Of a DNA stretch of 64,000 nucleotides, positions 7,525-25,957 are shown in pieces. The notes under the pieces are model-generated. The model did no database searches. It saw only the letters and a list, made by a program, of their open reading frames with translations, and had not been told where the DNA came from. The first letter of the stretch is position 1. Each line of letters starts with the position of its first letter. The DNA comes from an uncultured delta proteobacterium (GTDB taxonomy: Bacteria > Desulfobacterota > Binatia > UBA9968): positions 288,001 to 352,000 of the forward strand of contig CAVUZH010000014.1 of NCBI GenBank assembly GCA_963745835.1. The letters are read 5' to 3'. Made by a program: the position numbers and the translations under genes.

Positions 7525-8163
7525 ATGAAATTTCTTTTCTTTGCTGCTTTACTCCAACTACTGACCGCCTGTTCAGCGCCGATCATGCAATTAGATTCTC
7601 ACGCCGCCGAAAAGAATGCCAAAAGAATTTTTGTCGTCCACAATAACTGGCATGCCGCTCTGGTTGTGCGAAGGGTCGATCTGACCGAAGACCTCGTTCC
7701 CGAACAAGCCGACTTTCCCGAAGCGGAGTATCTCGAAATAGGCTGGGGAGATCGAGATTACTTCCCAGCGCCAGAGGAAAGTGTTGGACTAGCGCTTAGG
7801 GCGGCATTCTGGTCGCGCGGGAGCGTGCTTCATGTCGTCGGCTTCAGGGGCGCCGTTAGAGATTATGTTACCGACGGTGAGATCATCGAACTCGCTCTTT
7901 CGCCCGAAGCTTTCCGGCGGCTGAGCGAGTTTTTATCTGCCAGCTTCTCGAGAGCGGATCCGTCTATCCCAGCGCAGTCGCAGCCCGGCCTGGTTCCATA
8001 CGCTCGGTTTTATCCCGCATCCGGGAGATTCAGCATCCTTAGAACATGCAACACTTGGATAGCGGAAGCCCTAAAAAGCGCCGGGATTGATATCAGTCCC
8101 AGATATGTCATCACAGCTGCAAGCCTGGCTCGCCAGGTCCGAGCGCATCAGGTGAAAAATTAG
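7525..8163 (+). CDS. DUF2459-family lipoprotein
   Basis: LTAC lipobox; WHAALVV, YLEIGWGDRDYF, RTCNTWIAEALK. Confidence 0.8.
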   Translation: MKFLFFAALLQLLTACSAPIMQLDSHAAEKNAKRIFVVHNNWHAALVVRRVDLTEDLVPEQADFPEAEYLEIGWGDRDYFPAPEESVGLALRAAFWSRGSVLHVVGFRGAVRDYVTDGEIIELALSPEAFRRLSEFLSASFSRADPSIPAQSQPGLVPYARFYPASGRFSILRTCNTWIAEALKSAGIDISPRYVITAASLARQVRAHQVKN

Positions 8164-8352
8164 ACTTCTTTCTATTCGCACACCCGTTCGAGTTGTCTGT
8201 GCGCTGGCAGCTCGCCTAGGAAACATCGTGAGCTAATCTCGACCTTGGCAGCTGCAGTCGCCTGGGTTAAGATATAATTAACCTAGGTCGTGGGTGCCCA
8301 TTCAATCCAGCAATTTGTCATGTGAAACCTTGAGAGATTGTCGAACCCCACA

Positions 8353-9378
8353 ATGAAGCCAGCAAGAACTCGTTTACCAGTTGTTTTGTTTCTGATGGTT
8401 GCCTTGATTGGCAGCTGTCGCACCGGTACAGTTCCACAAACACCTCCGGGTTCGGAGCAAACTCCAGAAATCGCAGGCCTCGAATCATCTCACCCCGCCA
8501 CCGACGAACCTGCATCGGAACCGGCAATCACACCGGCAAAGATTCCGCCGGTGACACCGTCGCTAGCACTGCGGCAACTGCCGGAATCGCTTCTTAGCGC
8601 GCCGGAGAAAGAAAGCGTCGCGCCGGCAATCCAGTACGACACGGTTCTGACAAAACGATCAGTTCAGATAGCCGCCCATTCAGGCTGGCAGTATCGGAAC
8701 AACCGCCAAAGGCAAATTGTCGGCTTTGAGTTCTCCAATAGCGGCGGCAATCGAATTCTTCCCCAGCGTCGTGATATTAGCAAGAATCAACTCTACACCA
8801 GGGATTTCCAATTCCGCTTCGATGATCGTGCTAGGCAGGACGTGCACCTATCGGTTACCGACTGGGTCGCTTCCCGCGATAAGCAGTTTAGACTCAGCGA
8901 GCTGATGAACAGCGTGATGCTGTTTTTTCCGAGGAACTATTTACCGGCTGTAGTCACGGTGGGTGATCGAAACATCGTGACCCTGCCCACCGGCGAGGAA
9001 GTCGAGTTCGACGCTCACACGCATGAAGTCAGCGGTGGTGTGTTTTCGGAAGCGGCGGTTGATCCGAATCCGGACAAAAGCTTACGGCAATTTCCCGCTA
9101 TCCGTTATACTGGTTCAGGCGTCATGGTTCGCGCCGATGCCCGAGGATCGGATCCTAGACTTGGAAATATGGCGACTATCACAACCGGATCACCTCCCCC
9201 AGATTGTGTTCAGGGCGAAGCGTGCAAACGATGCGAAGTATCGGCTAAAGAGATTTGGGCACAGAGCGGTGCCGCTCGGTTTAGATTCGCCCATGATGAG
9301 GATTTCCACAATTATCTACTATCGAGGTGCGCCTTCGGCCTTCCAATGAAAACCGCTTCCGTCGTTACGTCCCGCTAG
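8353..9378 (+). CDS. Hypothetical lipoprotein with Pro-rich linker and Cys-containing C-terminal domain
   Basis: LIGSC lipobox, P/E/T-rich linker, globular domain FFPRNYLP...VTLPTGEEVEFD. Confidence 0.7.
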   Translation: MKPARTRLPVVLFLMVALIGSCRTGTVPQTPPGSEQTPEIAGLESSHPATDEPASEPAITPAKIPPVTPSLALRQLPESLLSAPEKESVAPAIQYDTVLTKRSVQIAAHSGWQYRNNRQRQIVGFEFSNSGGNRILPQRRDISKNQLYTRDFQFRFDDRARQDVHLSVTDWVASRDKQFRLSELMNSVMLFFPRNYLPAVVTVGDRNIVTLPTGEEVEFDAHTHEVSGGVFSEAAVDPNPDKSLRQFPAIRYTGSGVMVRADARGSDPRLGNMATITTGSPPPDCVQGEACKRCEVSAKEIWAQSGAARFRFAHDEDFHNYLLSRCAFGLPMKTASVVTSR

Positions 9379-15688: not shown

Positions 15689-16120
15689 TCACGATGCAAG
15701 CCGGATGAGATCAGCATACTGCTCGCCGCGGTCATTCTTTATTACCTTGATCAAAATAAGGTCGCCGTAGCGTAAATCATCGACCGGCATCTCGCGCTCG
15801 CGATTATAGACGACGGTCGCGGGATCGTATTTGATGACCGTCATGCGGCCCTCGGTTGTACGGAGTTGGATTTCGCGGCGATTCTGATCAACCTTTTGCA
15901 CGGTCCCTGTCATTTCGTCGGCGGCTCGCGGCCGCGCGATCTCAGGATGGCTTTCCGGCCGGCGGTCTAACTCCCGACGATCCAAGTCCCGGCGGCTAAC
16001 ATCGCCGGGATCATCGATCGCACGCCGTGGTAAAAGCGCGATGCTCTCGCATCCAGCCGACGTCAACACAAACATCAGCGGCACAACTGCTATTACCTTT
16101 GCTCTAAACTTCTGCTTCAT
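15689..16120 (-). CDS. Hypothetical lipoprotein (small beta-barrel/OB-like C-terminus)
   Basis: SAGC lipobox; GTVQKVD..REIQLRT...DDLRYGDLI; start placed downstream of the sigma54 motif. Confidence 0.7.
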   Translation of the reverse strand: MKQKFRAKVIAVVPLMFVLTSAGCESIALLPRRAIDDPGDVSRRDLDRRELDRRPESHPEIARPRAADEMTGTVQKVDQNRREIQLRTTEGRMTVIKYDPATVVYNREREMPVDDLRYGDLILIKVIKNDRGEQYADLIRLAS

Positions 16121-16144: not shown

Positions 16145-16160
16145 AGCAATTAGAATGCCA
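16145..16160 (-). promoter_or_regulatory. sigma54 (-24/-12) promoter motif
   Basis: TGGCATTCTAATTGCT (GG-N10-GC), about 25 nt before ATG 16120. Confidence 0.7.
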
Positions 16161-16409: not shown

Positions 16410-16679
16410 TTAATCAATCTTTTGCAGCTCTTTCTCTTCGAGGATTTGAGTGGAATCGTCGGCAAGCTTAACTTCGTACAGCGTTATACCTCGCGGATGG
16501 ATATCGCCGGCAACATGCTTCGGGAACTCGCCAATGTAAACGCCGTCGCTGACTTTGCCGCGCAACGAGTTTTGCCCTTTCAGTACAACTGCATCGCCTT
16601 TTCTCAATTGAAACATAAATGCAAAACTCTCGTCGAGTCGCGGATCATCGATCTTAATCGTTTCCATGTAAGTTATCAT
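16410..16679 (-). CDS. Small hypothetical protein, possible SH3/KOW-like fold
   Basis: LRKGDAVVL..GKV...LYEVKL...EEKEL pattern. Confidence 0.6.
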   Translation of the reverse strand: MITYMETIKIDDPRLDESFAFMFQLRKGDAVVLKGQNSLRGKVSDGVYIGEFPKHVAGDIHPRGITLYEVKLADDSTQILEEKELQKID

Positions 16680-16753
16680 CGCTGGTTTTTACCTTTTTTC
16701 AAGATGTGCAAATGCAGATCGATCGAGCTCACCGTGTGCAGCACGCAGGCAAG

Positions 16754-16769
16754 TGGCATATAGATTGCG
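16754..16769 (+). promoter_or_regulatory. sigma54 promoter motif
   Basis: TGGCATATAGATTGCG upstream of SDR gene. Confidence 0.65.
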
Positions 16770-16890
16770 TTTTTTGAATGGTTTCCCGAGTCCTGCGCAT
16801 AATTAAGCAGGTGATGTCTGTGCAACGATTGCGGAATGTTAGTTTCGCGTCCGATCCATACTGTTATCGGTCGTCGTCATGGAGGAGATC

Positions 16891-18000
16891 ATGAGAGTCA
16901 CTTCGCAGAACAGGCTCCCGCTACCATTGAGAATTGCCGCAGTCGGAGTCGCCGCAGCCGGTTTCTCCTACGCTTTGGGCCGCTACCGTAGAATCGATTT
17001 CTCCCGGAAGACTGTGCTGATCTCGGGAGCATCACGCGGGCTTGGTTTAGAACTGGCTCGCCGTTTTGCAGCGCAACGCGCCAACGTCGTGTTACTGGCC
17101 CGCGATCAGGGCCGGCTAACAGAAGCCGCTCAAGAACTCAGAAGATACGGCGTTGACATATCGACCCGACAGTGTGATGTGACGCAAGCCGATGAAGCGC
17201 GGCGCGCCATTACGTCCGTCATCGATGAGTTCAAAACAATCGATGTACTGGTTAATAACGCCGGTATCATCCAGGTCGGGCCTGCGGAAAACATGAACCG
17301 AGACGATTACGCCGACGCGTTGGCAGTGCATTTCTGGGCTCCGCTCAACCTGACAACTGAAGTGCTTCCGTATATGAAGGGGCAAGGCAGTGGCCGCATC
17401 GTCAATATTACCTCAATCGGCGGCAAGGTCGCGGTGCCTCATCTGGCGCCTTATGTCGCCAGTAAATTCGCTTTTGTCGGCTTCTCCGAGGCGATGCGGG
17501 TAGAGCTGATAAAAGACGGCATTTACGTGACCACAGTGGTTCCTGGTTTGATGCGCACCGGCTCTCACATCAACGCGTTTTTTAAGGGGCAGCATCAAAA
17601 AGAGTTCGCACTCTTCAGTATCGCCAACGCGTCACCGTTGTTCTCTACAGCTTCGGAACGAGCGGCCCGGCAGATCGTGGAAGCGTGCCGGTACGGCAAA
17701 GCCGAATTGATTATTACGCCTCAGGCGCGCCTTCTTCATCTCGCCAATTCTTTATTCCCAAACATTACCGCGGAAGTTCTAGGATTGATTTCACGAGGCC
17801 TGCCAAGCACCCGGCCCGGCGAAGGCAACGCTTTGAAACGGGGCTGGCAAAGCCACTCTTTTATGGCACCATCAGTACTTACCCGCACGGCCGATCGGGT
17901 CATCCGCCGCAACCAAGAAGAGCCGCGCTCTGCATCGCATACGAATGCGTCAAACGGATTTCTCAAAGTCTCCGGGCCAGAACGCGACAGAAGCGGCTAG
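16891..18000 (+). CDS. Short-chain dehydrogenase/reductase
   Basis: SGASRGLG, NNAG, YVASK; GGAGG RBS. Confidence 0.92.
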   Translation: MRVTSQNRLPLPLRIAAVGVAAAGFSYALGRYRRIDFSRKTVLISGASRGLGLELARRFAAQRANVVLLARDQGRLTEAAQELRRYGVDISTRQCDVTQADEARRAITSVIDEFKTIDVLVNNAGIIQVGPAENMNRDDYADALAVHFWAPLNLTTEVLPYMKGQGSGRIVNITSIGGKVAVPHLAPYVASKFAFVGFSEAMRVELIKDGIYVTTVVPGLMRTGSHINAFFKGQHQKEFALFSIANASPLFSTASERAARQIVEACRYGKAELIITPQARLLHLANSLFPNITAEVLGLISRGLPSTRPGEGNALKRGWQSHSFMAPSVLTRTADRVIRRNQEEPRSASHTNASNGFLKVSGPERDRSG

Positions 18001-18119
18001 GATCGGATGTATCTCGGGAGAAACTTTATTAAGAACTGCGCGATCACCTGCAACAAAGGAGTCATGCCCCCATGAAGTAAAAACTCCCACGGACCAGGCG
18101 GCTATGACGGCTTTGAACG

Positions 18120-18371
18120 ATGAGGCTGGAGAATAAATCTAAGAAGCCAAAAGCAGAGAAGACACCTCTATGCGCCTGCACTCACGCCACCCATTTTCTC
18201 AGCCGGTGCCGCAAGCGGGTAAAACCCCCGGCGAAACAATGCACGGAGTGCCTGCAGGATCATAGCCGTTACCCGGGCCCCTCCTTGATCCAGCTAAAAA
18301 CAATCTCGCAACGCCTGCCGAGCGGCAAAGTAACCGCACATTCCGTGCACGCCGCCGCCGGGTGGGGTTGA
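18120..18371 (+). CDS. Cys/His microprotein A (CxCxHxxH-x4-C-x10-CxxC-x3-H)
   Basis: CACTHATHFLSRC-RKRVKPPAKQ-CTEC-LQDH; same spacing as 19813..19977; 3' end overlaps the convergent gene. Confidence 0.6.
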   Translation: MRLENKSKKPKAEKTPLCACTHATHFLSRCRKRVKPPAKQCTECLQDHSRYPGPSLIQLKTISQRLPSGKVTAHSVHAAAGWG

Positions 18372-19715
18372 TGCCGAGCAGAGATAGAGTCCGCGTGCTG
18401 AAGTCGAATACAGCTTCAAGGTGGGCCGTAAAAACAATTGACCTAGAGTGGGGGCGCCCCCGTTAATGTCGCCACCGATCAAGTTAGGGTTGCGCCGTTC
18501 TAGATCGGCGGGCGCAGCAACGCTGCGCGCAAGAACGGTATCGCGAAACCCCGGCGCGAAGCGCTCAATCTGAGCTTCGATGCGCGCGGTCATATCGAAT
18601 GCGGATCCGTTTGGCACGTGACAATACGTCCATAGAGTATGCTTTGATTCCGGCGCCCGCGATGAATCGAACAACGACGGTTGTACCGCCAAGACAAACG
18701 GATGCGCTGTGTGATCGCCTCGCCAAGCGGCGCGCTCCGAAACTGCTATCTCCTGCAATGTGCCGCCCAGATGAACCGTTGCCGCCCGCGCGCACGCCTG
18801 CGCTTTCCAAGGAACCGGGGCGGAAAGCGCCCAGTCGATTTTAAAAGCACCCATGCCGTAACGATAACGCTCAAGCCTTCGTCGATAGCTCGGCGATAGT
18901 CGATTCCCGGCAAGTCCCAGCAGTTGCTTTGGCGTCATGTCGAATAAAATTACTCTGCAGGAGGGAAGTTCATCCAGCGTTTGCACCGGCGTGTTGGTGT
19001 AGATCTCGCCGCCTTTCGATCGGAGATACAGAACCAGCGCGTCAGCCAGCGCTTGTGCCCCTCGCCGCGCTATGGGCCAGCCGAGCGCATGTGCCGTCGT
19101 CCCCAGCACCAGGCCGAAGGCCGCCGAACCCCACGCTTCTAGCGGCAACATCGAATGCGCAGACAGACCAGCGAGGAGCGCTCTGGCCCGCTGCGCCTCA
19201 AACCAGCTCTCGGCAAAGCTCCGCGCCGGGCGGATTGCTAAGAGGCCGAATCGGGTCATGGCTAGGGGCCTATTTGGCCATCTGAGCGGCGCGAGCAGAT
19301 CGGCGTCGAGGCCGTGCCATGACTCGATCATCGGACGCATCAACCGCTGATAAGCATCCCCATCTCCACCGAGTCCGGCGGCTGTGTCGTGCAACGATCT
19401 TTCAAGCATGACAGCCGAGCCATCGTCGAGAGGATGGGCGAGCGGCGCCGGCGGCTGTACCCATTCCAGGCCGTATTGAACCAGAGGCAATGAACGAAAC
19501 AGCGGTGAGCCGATTGCCAATGGATAAACTGCCGAGCAGACGTCATGGACAAATCCGGGCAAGGTTAATTCTTCCGAACGCATTCCGCCGCCGATCTTGT
19601 CTGCCGCTTCGTACACAGCCACCGATTTACCGCTATCGATCATTGTAATCGCGGCGGCAAGCCCATTTGGGCCGGAGCCTACAACGACGGCATCGTATCG
19701 CTGCGATTGAGCCAT
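18294..19715 (-). CDS. Phytoene desaturase-like FAD-dependent oxidoreductase (COG1233)
   Basis: VGSGPNGL, GFVHDVCSAVYP, GGDINGG, STPPGGGVHGMCG. Confidence 0.9.
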   Translation of the reverse strand: MAQSQRYDAVVVGSGPNGLAAAITMIDSGKSVAVYEAADKIGGGMRSEELTLPGFVHDVCSAVYPLAIGSPLFRSLPLVQYGLEWVQPPAPLAHPLDDGSAVMLERSLHDTAAGLGGDGDAYQRLMRPMIESWHGLDADLLAPLRWPNRPLAMTRFGLLAIRPARSFAESWFEAQRARALLAGLSAHSMLPLEAWGSAAFGLVLGTTAHALGWPIARRGAQALADALVLYLRSKGGEIYTNTPVQTLDELPSCRVILFDMTPKQLLGLAGNRLSPSYRRRLERYRYGMGAFKIDWALSAPVPWKAQACARAATVHLGGTLQEIAVSERAAWRGDHTAHPFVLAVQPSLFDSSRAPESKHTLWTYCHVPNGSAFDMTARIEAQIERFAPGFRDTVLARSVAAPADLERRNPNLIGGDINGGAPTLGQLFLRPTLKLYSTSARGLYLCSASTPPGGGVHGMCGYFAARQALRDCF

Positions 19716-19812
19716 TCAGCTCCGGTGCAGTTCAGCAGGATTAACCGACGGTTGAGAATTCCAGTTGGAGGAATTTTGACGCGTTACATGCGGCGAGGAT
19801 GCAGTGGGGATT

Positions 19813-19977
19813 CTATGGCACGATTGCAGAAGCGATATGATCTTTGCACGCCGGGCATTTCTCTTCTCCGGCGTGCATAAAATTTCCACAACCCTTTGGG
19901 CCATGTGTCGGGTGATCACAAGGGCAAGCCGTTTTGAGTTGATCGGCAGCATCTTTGCCTGTCGGATCGTATTCCAT
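19813..19977 (-). CDS. Cys/His microprotein B, 54 aa (not in ORF track)
   Basis: MEYDPTGKDAADQLKTACPCDHPTHGPKGCGNFMHAGEEKCPACKDHIASAIVP*; ATG 2 nt after the upstream stop. Confidence 0.7.
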   Translation of the reverse strand: MEYDPTGKDAADQLKTACPCDHPTHGPKGCGNFMHAGEEKCPACKDHIASAIVP

Positions 19978-19979
19978 TG

Positions 19980-20438
19980 CTAATGCTGGGTAGCCTTTCT
20001 GAACTCGGTTTTTTCAAGTCCCGAGGAGGCGCGTTCGGCGATGTATCGGACATCTTCCTTCGTATGCTGTAGCGCATCCTCCGGCACTGGTTTTACCTCG
20101 GTAACTTTGCGCTTGCCAATGGTCAACGCAATCGCGCCGGCAACACAGTAGACCAACCCAACTATGCCCAGGCTGCCCCAGAGTGGTATCGGTGTGTAGG
20201 TTGAAACGAGAAATACGATCATGAGAGTCAACAAAATGAATCCCACAACCAGCAAAAAGCCGCCGATCCCGAGCGATACGCCCGCCTTAATGCCCTTGCT
20301 CATCTCTTGCTTAAGCTCAAGCTTGGCTGCAGCAATTTCTTTAGTTATCAAAGTCTGAGCATCCTGGAAAATTCCAGAAATCAATGATCCAAACGACTTG
20401 TTGTCGTTACGACTGCCAGTAGTTTCTAATCGATCCAT
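19980..20438 (-). CDS. Phage_holin_3_6/YhjD-like two-TM membrane protein
   Basis: SFGSLISGIFQDAQTLITKEIAAAKLEL, two TM helices, PVPEDALQHTKEDV; AAGGAG RBS. Confidence 0.85.
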   Translation of the reverse strand: MDRLETTGSRNDNKSFGSLISGIFQDAQTLITKEIAAAKLELKQEMSKGIKAGVSLGIGGFLLVVGFILLTLMIVFLVSTYTPIPLWGSLGIVGLVYCVAGAIALTIGKRKVTEVKPVPEDALQHTKEDVRYIAERASSGLEKTEFRKATQH

Positions 20439-20471
20439 ACACATCTCCTTTTTTTAACTGTCTAATTAACC

Positions 20472-20487
20472 GGCAACTTTTATGCCA
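20472..20487 (-). promoter_or_regulatory. sigma54 promoter motif
   Basis: TGGCATAAAAGTTGCC, about 34 nt upstream of the holin-like gene. Confidence 0.7.
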
Positions 20488-21251
20488 CATCATGGATAAA
20501 TCATCATCAAACGCGCACACGTCGGACGCAGGTAAAGCTGTCACCATCGCGGGACATAGGAAGGTCTTTTGTTTCACAATTGGAGCAAGCTCTTAGCTGA
20601 CCGATCGAACTCTCTTACGTACGTTCCATCAATATGCAAAGACAAGAAGGTTTACCGGAATCCGGATGAATTTGATCAGCGACCGAGAGTATGATGATTC
20701 ATTCTATTACTTGGACCACTCCTAATTGTATAAGATCAAGCATTTTTCTAGAGCAGACAACCGTCTCCGATTGTCCAAACCGATCCACCATCGGTGCAGG
20801 AGATCAGTTTTTCGCCCGAGTTTGTAGCGATACCGCTCAACAACCGAATCGCTGCGATACTCGATCATGAACCAGGCGATGTCCCAGAGCCAACTGAGCG
20901 TTTTCGAGTCACGCGCAATTTCACAATGCCTGGCAGAAAACGCGACAATTCCTGCCCAAGGATTCGCACCAAAGACAAGGCCACATCTGAGCGATTTGCC
21001 AGATCTCAAGCGCTGTTTTGAGACTCATGCACGTTGAGCTGCCGTAAAGCGGGCCTACGACATCGCCAAGAGAATCAACACCTCCGCGGCAACGACCGAC
21101 TCGGCAAAATCAATTCTCTTCGGTCAAGACGGGCGGTCGCAACGTCTGGATCACGCAAGATCCAGCCGAGCCGCGCTACGAGCGGCTTCGAGCCTGGACT
21201 CGTATGAGCACTTGAGCGATTATCGTTCGAACTAGAAGTTGGAGGTCGAAC

Positions 21252-24255: not shown

Positions 24256-25215
24256 TTAATGGTCGCTTCCGATCTGCAAAACGATCTTTCCTCTTCCGTG
24301 ATGTGAATCGAGGCGGTCATGGGCCTTACCGACCTCCTGCAGACGAAGCACCGTGTCGATGACGGCACGAACCTGCTTTCTTTCAAATAGTGGCCGCATC
24401 TCCTCCAAGCGCCGGCGCTCGCGCATCAAGAAGGTGCCGTGCAACGTGATGTTTTTCTGATAAAGCAGAGACAGATCACCTTGCGGCGGCAAGACACAGG
24501 CGACCCGACCGAACGGTCGGACCGCAGGCAAACAACGGGCTACAATATCGATTCCTTCAATGTCAAATGCGGCATCTGCGCCATAGCCATAGGTTTCCCG
24601 AAGCGTCATCTCGGCCGCATCATCTTTGCGATAATCAATGGTCACGTCAGCGCCCAACTCTCTTAGAAAGTTTTGATTGTCAGCGCTCGCGCTGGCCAGA
24701 ACTCTCGCCCCTGCGGCTTTGGCAAATTGAACTGCAAAGGAACCGACCCCTCCCGCGCCGCCATGAATCAGAATGGTTTCGCCGGGCCGAACCGCTAACC
24801 TGCGGACTACCGCCTCCCAAGCCGTCCCCCCGGCAAGCGGAATCGCACTGGCTTCGACAAATGACAAACCGGTCGGTTTGCGCGCGACGATCGCAGCGGA
24901 TGCGACATTGTAATCGGCGTAACTCCCATGTGGGTTGCCAATGATTTCCGGAGTGTAGTAGACCTCGTCGCCTATTTTGAAATCGCTTATGCCGTGTCCA
25001 ACCTCTTCCACGATGCCGGCAACGTCATAGCCTAGAATCACGGGCGGATCTAATTTGGCCCAACCACCATCCGCTCGCAGCTTTGCGTCAACGGGATTGA
25101 CCGCCGAAGCTACAACACGGACCAGAACTTCGCCACAGCCGGGTTCAGGGCGCTCTAATTCGTGCATTTCAAACAGATTCGATCCCCCGAACCGTGGCAG
25201 AACCATTGCGCGCAT
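24256..25215 (-). CDS. MDR-family NADPH:quinone oxidoreductase-like protein
   Basis: VNPVD, ILGYDVAG, HGGAGGVG, GRGKIVL. Confidence 0.9.
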   Translation of the reverse strand: MRAMVLPRFGGSNLFEMHELERPEPGCGEVLVRVVASAVNPVDAKLRADGGWAKLDPPVILGYDVAGIVEEVGHGISDFKIGDEVYYTPEIIGNPHGSYADYNVASAAIVARKPTGLSFVEASAIPLAGGTAWEAVVRRLAVRPGETILIHGGAGGVGSFAVQFAKAAGARVLASASADNQNFLRELGADVTIDYRKDDAAEMTLRETYGYGADAAFDIEGIDIVARCLPAVRPFGRVACVLPPQGDLSLLYQKNITLHGTFLMRERRRLEEMRPLFERKQVRAVIDTVLRLQEVGKAHDRLDSHHGRGKIVLQIGSDH

Positions 25216-25488
25216 GTTCGATCCTTTCAATTGAAGGCGTTGCGAAGCCGATGAACGATGCTTGCTAAAACTGGAGTTGTCTTAATTATAGCAAGAGCAA
25301 TTAGCGCAATCGATGTACCATGCAGCTCAACACGGAGTGCGACCTATTCTTTAGCAATGATTCATCGTCCCAAGGATCTCAATATCGAGACACGACGGGG
25401 CAGTCCTTATCATGTATGGAATCGACGTATTCGCATCAAACGAATCACCACTGCGCGCTTGGTCTATGCTCGTTTAGATAGGTACCCA

Positions 25489-25504
25489 TGGCATGCACGT
25501 TGCT
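25489..25504 (+). promoter_or_regulatory. sigma54 promoter motif
   Basis: TGGCATGCACGTTGCT, about 28 nt before the cytochrome c start. Confidence 0.7.
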
Positions 25505-25531: not shown

Positions 25532-25957
25532 GTGACGAAAATATTTCTAACTTTAGCGTTTAGCTTGATGACTTGGTGGCTGGCAACCGCCGCTGACCGC
25601 AACAACAAGGCCGGCAACATCGAGGATGGAATCTCCCGCGGGAAATACCTCGTCGAGCGGGTGGCGATGTGCATTCAGTGTCACACGCCTCGTAATCAGA
25701 CGGGGGAGTTGCTTGAAACCCGATATCTACAGGGCGGGCCGGTTCCGGTTTCAGCGCCGCCCAACTTCAGGATCGATTGGGCGTATAAGGCTCCAGCGAT
25801 AGCCGGACTACCCGGCTATACGATTCAAGATGGTATCAAATTATTAACTGAAGGAATTACACCGGACGGGAGAGTCCCCAAAGCCCCTATGCCCAGGTTT
25901 CGATTAACGCGAGCCGACGCTGAAGCTATCGTCACCTATTTGAAATCGCTTTCCTAA
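25532..25957 (+). CDS. Monoheme c-type cytochrome
   Basis: Signal peptide, RGKYLV, CIQCH, PMP axial Met; GGAGG RBS, GTG start. Confidence 0.9.
   Translation: MTKIFLTLAFSLMTWWLATAADRNNKAGNIEDGISRGKYLVERVAMCIQCHTPRNQTGELLETRYLQGGPVPVSAPPNFRIDWAYKAPAIAGLPGYTIQDGIKLLTEGITPDGRVPKAPMPRFRLTRADAEAIVTYLKSLS

What the first reader, a model, noticed from the sequence alone, without database searches (positions are those of the whole stretch)
18120..19977. Two microproteins share a Cys/His motif I do not recognise, each downstream of a sigma54 motif
Seen: 18120..18371(+) has C18-A-C-T-H-A-T-H-FLSR-C-x10-C-TE-C-LQD-H. The 54-aa ORF 19813..19977(-), missing from the ORF track, has C18-P-C-D-H-P-T-H-GPKG-C-x10-C-PA-C-KD-H. 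Ligand spacing is identical except the last His, and the first Cys is residue 18 in both, while intervening residues differ. That pattern suggests selection on metal ligands. The two copies converge on either side of a phytoene-desaturase-like gene. One follows the SDR; the other starts 2 nt after the holin-like stop. Inference: a small two-metal (5 Cys + 3 His) zinc-binding family in a stress regulon.
Basis: partly seen in the sequence, partly recalled or inferred. Interest (0 to 1): 0.8.

Follow-up and report, generated by a model that had tools for sequence, protein, structure and literature searches.

The report
New Cys/His metal-binding microprotein family
Two tiny genes in an uncultured soil bacterium (Binatia) belong to a real, so far unnamed family of cysteine/histidine-rich, probably zinc-binding mini-proteins that sit behind stress-type membrane-protein and dehydrogenase genes and are fused to that dehydrogenase in some relatives.

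Summary
ORF A (18120..18371 +) and ORF B (19813..19977 -) carry C-x-C-x-H-x2-H-x4-C-x10-C-x2-C-x2/3-H exactly as described. Chance expects about 1e-5 such matches per genome. A looser pattern finds a third copy on another contig.

The ORFs are real genes of a small family:
- 61 distinct domain sequences were collected.
- There are 20 hits (one of them false) among 1.84 billion representative proteins.
- Within the order it was found only in one GTDB family of Candidatus Binatia.
- It has no Pfam, NCBIfam, PDB-sequence or Foldseek match.

Five Cys and the last His never vary. The other two His are replaced in 6 and 4 of the 61 sequences, so two-metal stoichiometry is unproven.

The A type follows a membrane-anchored SDR and is fused in frame to that SDR's C-terminus in several relatives. 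The B and C types trail membrane or stress genes (PF07332, BrkB, PspC, DUF2382). These operons start at conserved sigma-54-type promoters.

The window's A copy has a 2-nt deficit that creates its long tail. B is broken or degraded in some close relatives.

Best reading: a new zinc-type mini-domain acting as an accessory to its operon partner. Metal binding and function remain untested.

The parts
18120..18371 (+). ORF A, an A-type Cys/His microprotein. It is 83 aa as it stands; orthologues are 54-56 aa.
   Evidence: Orthologues in G003-G007 and in metagenome loci.
18171..18263 (+). Conserved Cys/His domain of A (C18 C20 H22 H25 C30 C41 C44 H48), with the A-type signature TH.THFL.RC
18264..18270 (.). 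Site where the window lacks 2 nt relative to G004, G005 and G006. This shifts the frame after the last His, so the conserved TGA at 18286-18288 is missed.
   Evidence: Contigs from RNA libraries X16 and X17 carry +C at 18264 and +C at 18270 (table 4).
19813..19977 (-). ORF B, a B-type Cys/His microprotein of 54 aa. It starts 2 nt after the stop of the PF07332 gene.
19837..19926 (-). Conserved Cys/His domain of B (C18 C20 H22 H25 C30 C41 C44 H47), with the B-type signature CPC.HP.HG..GC
16879..18000 (+). SDR with an N-terminal hydrophobic segment and a C-terminal extension of about 120 aa. It is the upstream gene of A and is fused to the A-type domain in some relatives.
   Evidence: adh_short 2.1e-54; fusions
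18294..19715 (-). FAD-dependent oxidoreductase of the CrtI/CrtO-like superfamily, well below every equivalog cut-off. It lies 97 nt downstream of B on the same strand.
   Evidence: CrtO model 117.7 bits against a cut-off of 1000
19980..20444 (-). PF07332 (Phage_holin_3_6) small membrane protein, the upstream gene of B
   Evidence: 7.6e-25
16754..16768 (+). Sigma-54-type -24/-12 motif TGGCATATAGATTGC upstream of the SDR-A pair
   Evidence: The same position holds a motif in G004, G005, G006 and in L041, L042, L043, L053, L054.
20473..20487 (-). Sigma-54-type motif TGGCATAAAAGTTGC upstream of the PF07332-B(-FAD oxidoreductase) genes
   Evidence: It is the best-conserved block of the upstream region in five genomes.
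16146..16160 (-). Sigma-54-type motif TGGCATTCTAATTGC upstream of the lipoprotein gene 15689..16120(-), a neighbour in the same putative regulon

Best explanation
ORF A and ORF B are translated genes of a previously undescribed, lineage-restricted family. The family is defined by a roughly 30-residue Cys/His mini-domain, C-x-C-x-[H]-x2-[H]-x4-C-x10-12-C-x2-C-x2-3-H.

Shown:
- The family is real and under purifying selection.
- This genome holds three paralogues (A, B and C types).
- The domain occurs as a free 41-56-aa protein, as a tandem two-domain protein, and as the extreme C-terminal domain of a membrane-anchored SDR.
- The free forms are usually the distal gene behind a membrane or stress-type gene: the SDR for A; PF07332, BrkB or PspC for B; DUF2382/YflT for C.
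- These gene pairs start at conserved sigma-54-type promoters.

Inferred:
- The invariant Cys (a CxC knuckle plus CxxC at a helix start, with C30 and the final His) bind metal, most likely structural Zn(II). One site is obligatory. A second site, built partly from the variable His22 and His25, is likely in most members.
- The folded mini-domain acts as a cytoplasmic accessory or docking module for its operon partner at the membrane. For the A type that partner is the SDR, whose C-terminal domain it is in other genomes.
- The zinc-thiolate centre may give thiol or redox sensitivity during the sigma-54-driven envelope or osmotic stress response.
For: Not chance:
- The motif is expected about 1e-5 times per genome, is seen twice in strict form and three times in loose form, and gives 0 matches in 5 shuffles.

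Homology and selection:
- The A and B subfamily profiles align at 95.3% probability, E 2.2e-8.
- C18, C20, C30, C41, C44 and the last His are invariant in alignments of 17, 49 and 12 sequences whose identity to the first sequence falls to 21-33%.
- dN/dS is 0.21-0.50 in 9 orthologue pairs.
- In G005 the A coding stretch stays alignable while the upstream spacer does not.

Fusions:
- P0013 is 70% identical to SDR residues 206-347 and then runs into the domain.
- P0030 is a full 419-aa SDR-domain protein.
- L058, L059, L060 and L061 are in-frame fusions. G497 is fused but frameshifted.
- The domain is adjacent to or fused with the SDR orthologue in 8 of the 35 genomes that hold that orthologue.

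Partner genes:
- PF07332, BrkB (9-nt gap), PspC and DUF2382. Neighbours include YflT, MdoG and an MscS-type channel.

Sigma-54:
- TGG[CT]A[CT]N5TTGC occurs 146 times in the genome against 30-57 for six control patterns, and 7 times in the window.
- The motif sits at conserved positions before the SDR, PF07332, lipoprotein, DUF2382 and BrkB genes in relatives.
- The genome has one rpoN and at least 24 full-length activator domains.

RNA libraries:
- Contigs of four studies cover all of B plus part of the PF07332 gene (records 7, 16, 24). Contigs of two studies cover all of A (records 12, 20).

Ligand plasticity:
- One member replaces H22 and H25 by E22, a new C23, and R25.
Against: - No metal content, structure or interaction has been measured.
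- The AF2 models are only moderately confident: pLDDT 70.4 and 71.5, pTM 0.43 and 0.45. They match no solved fold.
- H22 is replaced in 6 of 61 distinct domains and H25 in 4 of 61.
- P0002 has C20Y, H25Q and C44Y. P0020 has Ser at C30.
- G005's B copy is broken by two 1-nt deletions. G003 has no B at E<=1e-4, only a possible relic. B is therefore dispensable in close relatives.
- 24 of the 35 genomes with the SDR orthologue show no A-type domain at E<=1e-4, and in 3 it lies elsewhere. The SDR does not need the domain.
- A has no clear Shine-Dalgarno sequence.
- RNA-library contigs cannot prove transcription, strand or translation.
- The 61-domain tally used a regex that fixes C18, C30, C41 and the last His, so their invariance in that tally is partly built in. 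The three alignments are the independent support.
Confidence: 0.6

Rival explanations
1. Metal buffer or metallochaperone (metallothionein-like). The peptides sequester or hand over Zn, Cu or Cd during metal or oxidative stress rather than acting as a structural module for a partner.
For: Eight potential ligands lie within about 30 residues, and the genome holds three paralogues. The setting is stress-related. In G019 the B type lies directly upstream of a membrane-fusion protein (HlyD_D23, the CusB/HlyD type) and an RND-sized pump gene. A His-rich methyltransferase lies 3.4 kb from the C type.
Against: The spacing is rigid: 57 of 61 domains have a C30-C41 gap of exactly 10. Non-ligand core residues are conserved (F26, L27, G28 and P37 in the A type). 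Both features are typical of a folded finger, not of a metallothionein. The domain occurs as the C-terminal domain of an enzyme. No metallothionein family appears among Pfam matches at E<=1. No dedicated metal-resistance genes lie next to A or B in the window.
Confidence: 0.14
2. Redox-active iron or iron-sulfur microprotein (rubredoxin-like or CDGSH-like) that shuttles electrons to the neighbouring SDR, FAD oxidoreductase or fatty-acid desaturase.
For: A and B flank two oxidoreductases and A is fused to one of them. The C type lies 1.9 kb from a sigma-54-preceded fatty-acid desaturase. From recalled knowledge, not a call: four Cys arranged as CxC plus CxxC, and CxC-x9-C, resemble Fe(Cys)4 and 3Cys-1His 2Fe-2S ligand sets.
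Against: No rubredoxin, CDGSH or ferredoxin family appears at E<=1 in Pfam for any of 17 members. No PDB sequence relative was found. B and C types also sit behind non-redox membrane proteins such as PspC, BrkB and DUF2382. 24 of 35 SDR orthologues lack the domain.
Confidence: 0.12
3. Small nucleic-acid-binding regulator (a zinc-finger transcription or RNA factor, in the manner of haloarchaeal Brz).
For: The window's A domain is strongly basic (net +4, RCRKRVKPPAKQ). Small zinc-finger regulators exist (PMC2253796; search listing only).
Against: Basicity is not conserved. The net charge of A-type domains runs from +6 to -3, and B-type domains are mostly acidic. The domain is fused to a membrane-anchored enzyme.
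Confidence: 0.07
4. Precursors of ribosomally made, post-translationally modified peptides processed by the neighbouring SDR and FAD oxidoreductase.
For: Short Cys-rich ORFs lie beside two oxidoreductases.
Against: The same domain is the C-terminus of a 419-aa enzyme. It also sits in unrelated contexts without those enzymes. The loci examined show no leader/core split, protease, transporter or known maturase.
Confidence: 0.03
5. Not genes: conserved non-coding or chance ORFs.
For: The ORFs are short. A lacks a clear ribosome-binding site. The window's exact sequences are not in the 15-billion-protein collection.
Against: The motif statistics argue against chance. The family is conserved across contexts with only the ligands kept. 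In-frame fusions exist. dN/dS is below 1. Independent gene calls exist in public collections.
Confidence: 0.02

Closest known systems
Haloarchaeal C(P)XCG zinc-finger micro-proteins (Haloferax volcanii HVO_0758 and relatives; PMC10716476, PMC11241148 - search listing with start of abstract only)
   Same: Free-standing proteins under 70 aa whose only conserved feature is a set of Cys ligands, and which are predicted or shown to bind one zinc.
   Different: Those are defined by two C(P)XCG motifs. Here the first pair is CxC and the only CxxC is not followed by Gly. His residues take part. The lineage is bacterial (Binatia). The domain also exists fused to an enzyme. No sequence relationship was detected.
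Hsp33-type CXC...CXXC zinc centre (recalled from general knowledge; not fetched)
   Same: One CxC pair and one CxxC pair could form a Cys4 zinc site. Stress context; a possible thiol switch.
   Different: No Hsp33 family match at E<=1. The spacer is 20 residues, whereas the recalled Hsp33 spacer is about 30. There is no chaperone domain. An extra Cys and extra His residues are present.
Cross-brace two-zinc fingers (RING / B-box)
   Same: Eight Cys/His ligands in about 30-45 residues. The weak sub-threshold Pfam hit is zf-RING_4 (4 of 17 members, best E 0.007). The top, insignificant, Foldseek hit is PML B-box2 (E 7.1).
   Different: The scores are far below the cut-off (11.3 against 27 bits). 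The ligand order and spacing differ. Two of the eight ligands are not invariant.
Zinc ribbons (Pfam Zn_ribbon_11 and similar)
   Same: A CxxC knuckle near the C-terminus and a small size. Sub-threshold hit in 4 of 17 members, best E 0.019.
   Different: 13.5 bits against a cut-off of 24. Only the second half aligns. A zinc ribbon has two CxxC knuckles, whereas this domain has CxC-x-H-x2-H.
Bacterial metallothioneins (SmtA/BmtA; recalled)
   Same: Cys- and His-rich small bacterial proteins that bind zinc.
   Different: No Pfam match at E<=1. Ligand density is lower, the spacing is fixed, and hydrophobic core residues are conserved.

Membership tests
Pfam Zn_ribbon_11 (PF11682) | Score at or above the gathering cut-off (24 bits) | tested here: not met
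   B scores 13.5 bits, E 0.058. A has no hit. 4 of 17 family members hit, best E 0.019.
Pfam zf-RING_4 / RING cross-brace | Score at or above the gathering cut-off (27 bits) | tested here: not met
   B scores 11.3 bits, E 0.3. 4 of 17 members hit, best E 0.007.
Haloarchaeal C(P)XCG zinc-finger micro-proteins | [quoted passage not shown] | tested here: not met
   A and B each have one CxxC (CTEC, CPAC), followed by L or K rather than G. The other pair is CxC.
Metallothionein, rubredoxin, CDGSH, Hsp33 and ZAS-type families in Pfam | Any Pfam match at E<=1 | tested here: not met
   None of these is among the families listed for A, B or for the 17 members scanned one by one. HMMER filters drop most matches above E of about 0.1.
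Any protein of solved structure | Sequence-profile match to a PDB chain, or a fold match to the model | tested here: not met
Sigma-54-dependent promoter | GG at -24 and GC at -12 in a TGGCAC-N5-TTGC-like element upstream of the gene, conserved in relatives | tested here: met
   One-mismatch sites lie at 16754-16768(+) and 20473-20487(-). They are conserved in position in G003-G006 and in metagenome loci. Genome-wide excess: 146 against 30-57 for controls.
Sigma-54-dependent promoter | The organism encodes sigma-54 and enhancer-binding activators | tested here: met
   One Sigma54_DBD match at 210.5 bits. 33 Sigma54_activat matches, 24 of them near full length.
Sigma-54-dependent promoter | Transcription starts there and depends on rpoN and an activator | not testable with these tools
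   The organism is uncultured. The RNA data are contigs without ends or strand.
Zinc-binding protein (generic) | Stoichiometric metal bound through the conserved Cys/His | not testable with these tools
   Only the conservation pattern is available.

The most novel reading that the evidence does not exclude
The domain is a new two-metal (or metal plus redox-active) fold with no counterpart among solved structures. It works as a detachable subunit: the same module is either the covalent C-terminal domain of a membrane SDR or a separately translated microprotein that docks in trans. Its paralogues do the same for PF07332, PspC, BrkB and DUF2382 membrane stress proteins. Together they would form a sigma-54-controlled set of thiol/zinc-switch adaptors specific to Binatia.
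Probability: 0.2. Interest if true: 0.65.

Novelty: new variant of a known kind. Interest (0 to 1): 0.45.

Why it matters
It adds a well-supported, unannotated microprotein family. All named members are labelled 'hypothetical protein', and several copies are missing from gene calls. The family has an unrecognised Cys/His ligand pattern and comes from a phylum known only from metagenomes.

The fused and split forms with the SDR give a concrete, testable partner for a bacterial microprotein, which is rare. The conserved sigma-54 promoters tie the microproteins, a PF07332 protein, a DUF2382/YflT protein, a lipoprotein and oxidoreductases into one candidate stress regulon in Binatia.

Its narrow taxonomic range and the lack of any functional data limit its wider importance for now.

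Tried and rejected
- Complex prediction of the SDR (residues 36-373, 9-row alignment) with A (residues 12-50, 12-row alignment) and 2 Zn gave no verdict: score 0.00 in both runs, controls not run, partner fold uncertain. This is no evidence either way.
- ESM Atlas look-alikes for B and for a G004 A orthologue scored at most 0.89 and 0.77, below the level at which a hit counts as more than a lead.
- The word-index homologue search with B found only 2 close relatives.
- The search for related loci with the mixed alignment A2 was not possible because no stretch was conserved enough. It was repeated with the A-type alignment A3, so the collection scans sampled A-type loci only.
- A search for a shared upstream activator site among nine sigma-54-type promoters gave only a weak similarity between the PF07332 upstream region and the DUF2382/desaturase spacer. 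It was not pursued.
- All sigma-54-like sites with up to 2 mismatches in the window number 68, against 67.4 expected. Only the near-consensus, position-conserved sites carry weight.
- Earlier findings of this scan returned nothing, by place or by sequence.
- Full-text searches for the motif strings HFLGRC, CXCXHXXH, CPCDHPTH and CxCxHx2H found 0 papers. The searches 'Binatia / sigma-54' and 'DUF2382 / general stress / holin / cysteine-rich' listed nothing relevant. Only listings were read, and supplementary files were not consulted.
- RNA-library contigs leave parts of the stretch uncovered. That says nothing about expression.
The tally was recomputed from the stored files.
Full report
**The observation.**
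- A has C18-A-C-T-H-A-T-H-FLSR-C-x10-C-TE-C-LQD-H.
- B has C18-P-C-D-H-P-T-H-GPKG-C-x10-C-PA-C-KD-H.

B's ATG lies 2 nt after the TAG of the upstream gene 19980..20444(-). A follows the SDR gene 16879..18000(+) after a 119-nt spacer. The two small ORFs converge on the FAD oxidoreductase gene 18294..19715(-).

From the six-frame Cys and His frequencies of the 7.28-Mb genome, the strict motif is expected about 1e-5 times and occurs twice. A looser pattern is expected 3e-4 times and occurs three times. Five whole-genome shuffles gave none. The third copy (C type, 41 aa) is on another contig, at G000:C16:358794-358919.

**A real family.**
Pfam and NCBIfam give nothing for A. For B they give only sub-threshold zinc-ribbon and RING-like hits. 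The same holds when 17 members are scanned one by one.

A six-frame profile search of relatives found strong matches in the same genus and the same GTDB family.
- Within the order, 19 of 123 genomes (G000 included) have a match at E<=1e-4. By family this is f1 18/89, f2 0/5 and f3 0/28.
- An even sample of the phylum gave 0 of 400 other genomes. Only 16 candidates per genome were scored there.
- These tallies include the unpublished genomes G018 and G475. No claim here rests on them.

Record titles name Candidatus Binatia MAGs for 3 of 6 loci. The other three carry delta-proteobacterial or Acidiferrales labels.

A profile search of 1.84 billion representative proteins found 20 hits at E<=1e-3 and 7 at E<=1e-10. 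I judge one of the 20, P0014, to be a low-complexity false hit. A metagenome scan with the A-type alignment found 24 loci. Named members are all labelled 'hypothetical protein', and the window's own three sequences are not in the 15-billion-protein collection.

**What is conserved.**
C18, C20, C30, C41, C44 and the last His are invariant in alignments of 17, 49 and 12 sequences, although identity to the first sequence falls to 21-33%. A-type and B-type profiles align with 95.3% probability and E 2.2e-8.

I also tallied 61 distinct domain sequences collected with a loose regex. That regex fixes C18, C30, C41 and the last His, so their invariance in this tally is built in.
- Position 22 is His in 55 of 61. 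The others are Y (2), D, E, N and S.
- Position 25 is His in 57 of 61. The others are Q (2), R and D.
- The C30-C41 gap is 10 residues in 57 of 61.
- One member (G517) has E22, a new C23, and R25.
- P0002 has C20Y, H25Q and C44Y. P0020 has Ser at position 30.

So five Cys plus one His form the core. The two other His are usual but replaceable, and a fixed two-metal stoichiometry is not established.

**Coding evidence.**
- dN/dS is 0.21-0.50 in nine orthologue pairs, though each rests on few substitutions.
- In G005 the A coding stretch aligns while the spacer upstream does not.
- In-frame fusions and independent gene calls exist (see the A-type section below).
- Six metatranscriptome runs hold 14-17% of the sampled words of 16700-20500.
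- Contigs of four of those runs, from four studies and 90-99% alike, were laid on the stretch. Records 7, 16 and 24 span all of B plus part of the PF07332 gene. Records 12 and 20 span all of A.
- Contigs from RNA libraries can contain DNA and show neither strand nor ends. This is consistent with transcription but does not prove it.

**State of the window's copies.**
Relative to G004, G005 and G006, the window lacks 2 nt immediately after the last His codon of A. As a result the conserved TGA at 18286-18288 is missed and the ORF runs on for 83 aa, antisense to the end of the FAD oxidoreductase gene. The RNA-library contigs of X16 and X17 carry +C at 18264 and +C at 18270, which is the relatives' frame. 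All eight Cys/His of A are upstream of the shift. Whether the deficit is real or an assembly error is open.

B is intact in the window. In close relatives it is less stable:
- It has H25Q in G004.
- It is broken by two 1-nt deletions in G005.
- It is not found in G003, where the spacer holds at most a relic.

**The A type and the SDR.**
Several sequences show the domain fused in frame to the SDR's C-terminus.
- P0013 is 70% identical to SDR residues 206-347 and continues in frame into an A-type domain.
- P0015 and P0017 begin inside the SDR tail.
- P0030 is a complete 419-aa protein: hydrophobic N-terminus, SDR, extension, then the domain at the very C-terminus.
- Metagenome loci L058-L061 are in-frame fusions. 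G497 is fused but frameshifted after C41.

In the window's genus, and in L041-L043, L045 and L053-L055, A is a separate gene right after the SDR. L060 keeps the convergent FAD oxidoreductase.

The link is not obligatory. The SDR orthologue, searched with its C-terminal extension, is found in 35 of 123 genomes of the order.
- In 8 of those 35 the A-type domain is adjacent or fused.
- In 3 it lies elsewhere.
- In 24 it was not found at E<=1e-4.

Other A-type loci stand alone, some about 2 kb from a DUF2382-like gene.

**The B and C types.**
- B follows the PF07332 gene in the window's genus.
- B follows a BrkB-family gene with a 9-nt gap in G036, and a PspC-domain gene in G019.
- C follows a DUF2382 gene that has a YflT-domain ORF at its start.

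All of these are membrane or general-stress-type proteins. Window neighbours include MdoG and an MscS-type channel. The FAD oxidoreductase lies 97 nt downstream of B on the same strand and may be the third gene of that operon.

**Sigma-54.**
Counted with up to 2 mismatches, sigma-54-like sites in the window equal chance: 68 against 67.4. The near-consensus pattern TGG[CT]A[CT]N5TTGC behaves differently. It occurs 146 times in the genome against 30-57 for six control patterns, and 7 times in the window.

The sites at 16754-16768(+), 20473-20487(-) and 16146-16160(-) keep their position in relatives:
- before the SDR genes in G004-G006 and in L041-L043, L053 and L054;
- before the PF07332 genes in G003-G006;
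- before the lipoprotein genes in G004-G006 and G024.

Such sites also precede the DUF2382 gene upstream of C, the neighbouring desaturase, and the BrkB-B pair of G036. In the PF07332 upstream region the motif is the best-conserved block across five genomes. The genome has one rpoN and at least 24 full-length activator domains.

**Structure.**
- AF2 with 17 and 49 rows gave pLDDT 70.4 and 71.5, and pTM 0.43 and 0.45.
- In both models C41-x-x-C44 opens a short helix.
- PDB sequence profiles found nothing.

The fold is thus unassigned. A knuckle (CxC) plus a helix-start CxxC is the treble-clef logic known from zinc fingers. That comparison is my inference, not a tool result.

**Mechanism.**
I take the domain to be a structural metal site, most likely Zn(II). 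It would have one obligatory Cys-based centre and, in most members, a second centre that uses His22 and His25. I take its role to be a cytoplasmic accessory that docks on its operon partner at the membrane. For the A type that partner is the SDR, which carries the domain covalently in other genomes.

Thiol or redox sensing is possible but untested.

Net charge of the A domain ranges from +6 to -3, which argues against a general nucleic-acid-binding role. The rivals are a metal buffer, an iron or Fe-S electron carrier, a regulator, a RiPP precursor and a non-gene. Each is weighed in its own section.

**Novelty.**
No described family, structure or paper matches. The kind of thing, a small Cys/His metal-binding microprotein, is well known. 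The closest described examples are the haloarchaeal C(P)XCG micro-proteins (listing only), and this family fails their defining motif. I rate it a new variant of a known kind. It is of moderate interest because of the split/fused relation to an enzyme and the conserved sigma-54 setting.

Noticed in passing
L031:6671-6790 (-) (G036:C366): A 40-aa C2H2-type zinc-finger ORF (DUF7128, 26.2 bits against a cut-off of 25.7; zf-C2H2 below its cut-off). It has a Shine-Dalgarno sequence and a sigma-54-type motif at L031:6821-6835(-), and it converges on a B-type microprotein gene. This is a second kind of zinc-finger microprotein under a sigma-54-type promoter in the same lineage.
   Followed up: partly
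window 25306-25320 (-) and 25489-25503 (+): A divergent pair of sigma-54-type motifs lies before a zinc-type alcohol dehydrogenase gene (24256..25230 -) and a cytochrome c gene (25532..25957 +). Both motifs are conserved in G004 and G006.
   Followed up: partly
G000 whole genome: The near-consensus sigma-54 promoter pattern occurs 146 times against 30-57 for control patterns, and the genome has at least 24 full-length sigma-54 activator domains. This points to unusually heavy use of sigma-54.
   Followed up: partly
L001:12332-13417 (-) (G000:C16): A methyltransferase with an N-terminal stretch of about 70 residues made almost entirely of His, Asp, Glu, Gly and Ser repeats (His-rich, metal-binding-like). 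It lies 3.4 kb from the C-type microprotein.
   Followed up: no
P0011 (86 aa, ENA metagenome protein): A protein made of two tandem copies of the Cys/His domain. The first copy has Asp in place of His22.
   Followed up: no
L028:860-1160 (G003) and L044: In the PF07332-to-FAD-oxidoreductase spacer, where B sits in the window, G003 and a related metagenome contig show only a short frame ending '...KCPCTF...'. This may be a relic of a lost B gene.
   Followed up: partly
L001:7561-7746 (+) and 7715-8686 (+): The YflT-domain ORF and the DUF2382 ORF upstream of the C type overlap in different frames. This is either one gene with a frameshift or assembly error, or two overlapping genes.
   Followed up: no
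window 16410-16679 (-) and 15689-16120 (-): An 89-aa ORF with no family and a 143-aa lipoprotein with no family are syntenic with the SDR in all close relatives. The lipoprotein has its own conserved sigma-54-type motif. In G024 the lipoprotein homologue, preceded by a sigma-54-type motif, lies divergent from an A-type gene.
   Followed up: partly
G000 (whole assembly): The assembly is a MAG with 97.1% completeness and 9.33% contamination. Copy numbers and single-base indels, such as the one in ORF A, should be read with care.
   Followed up: no
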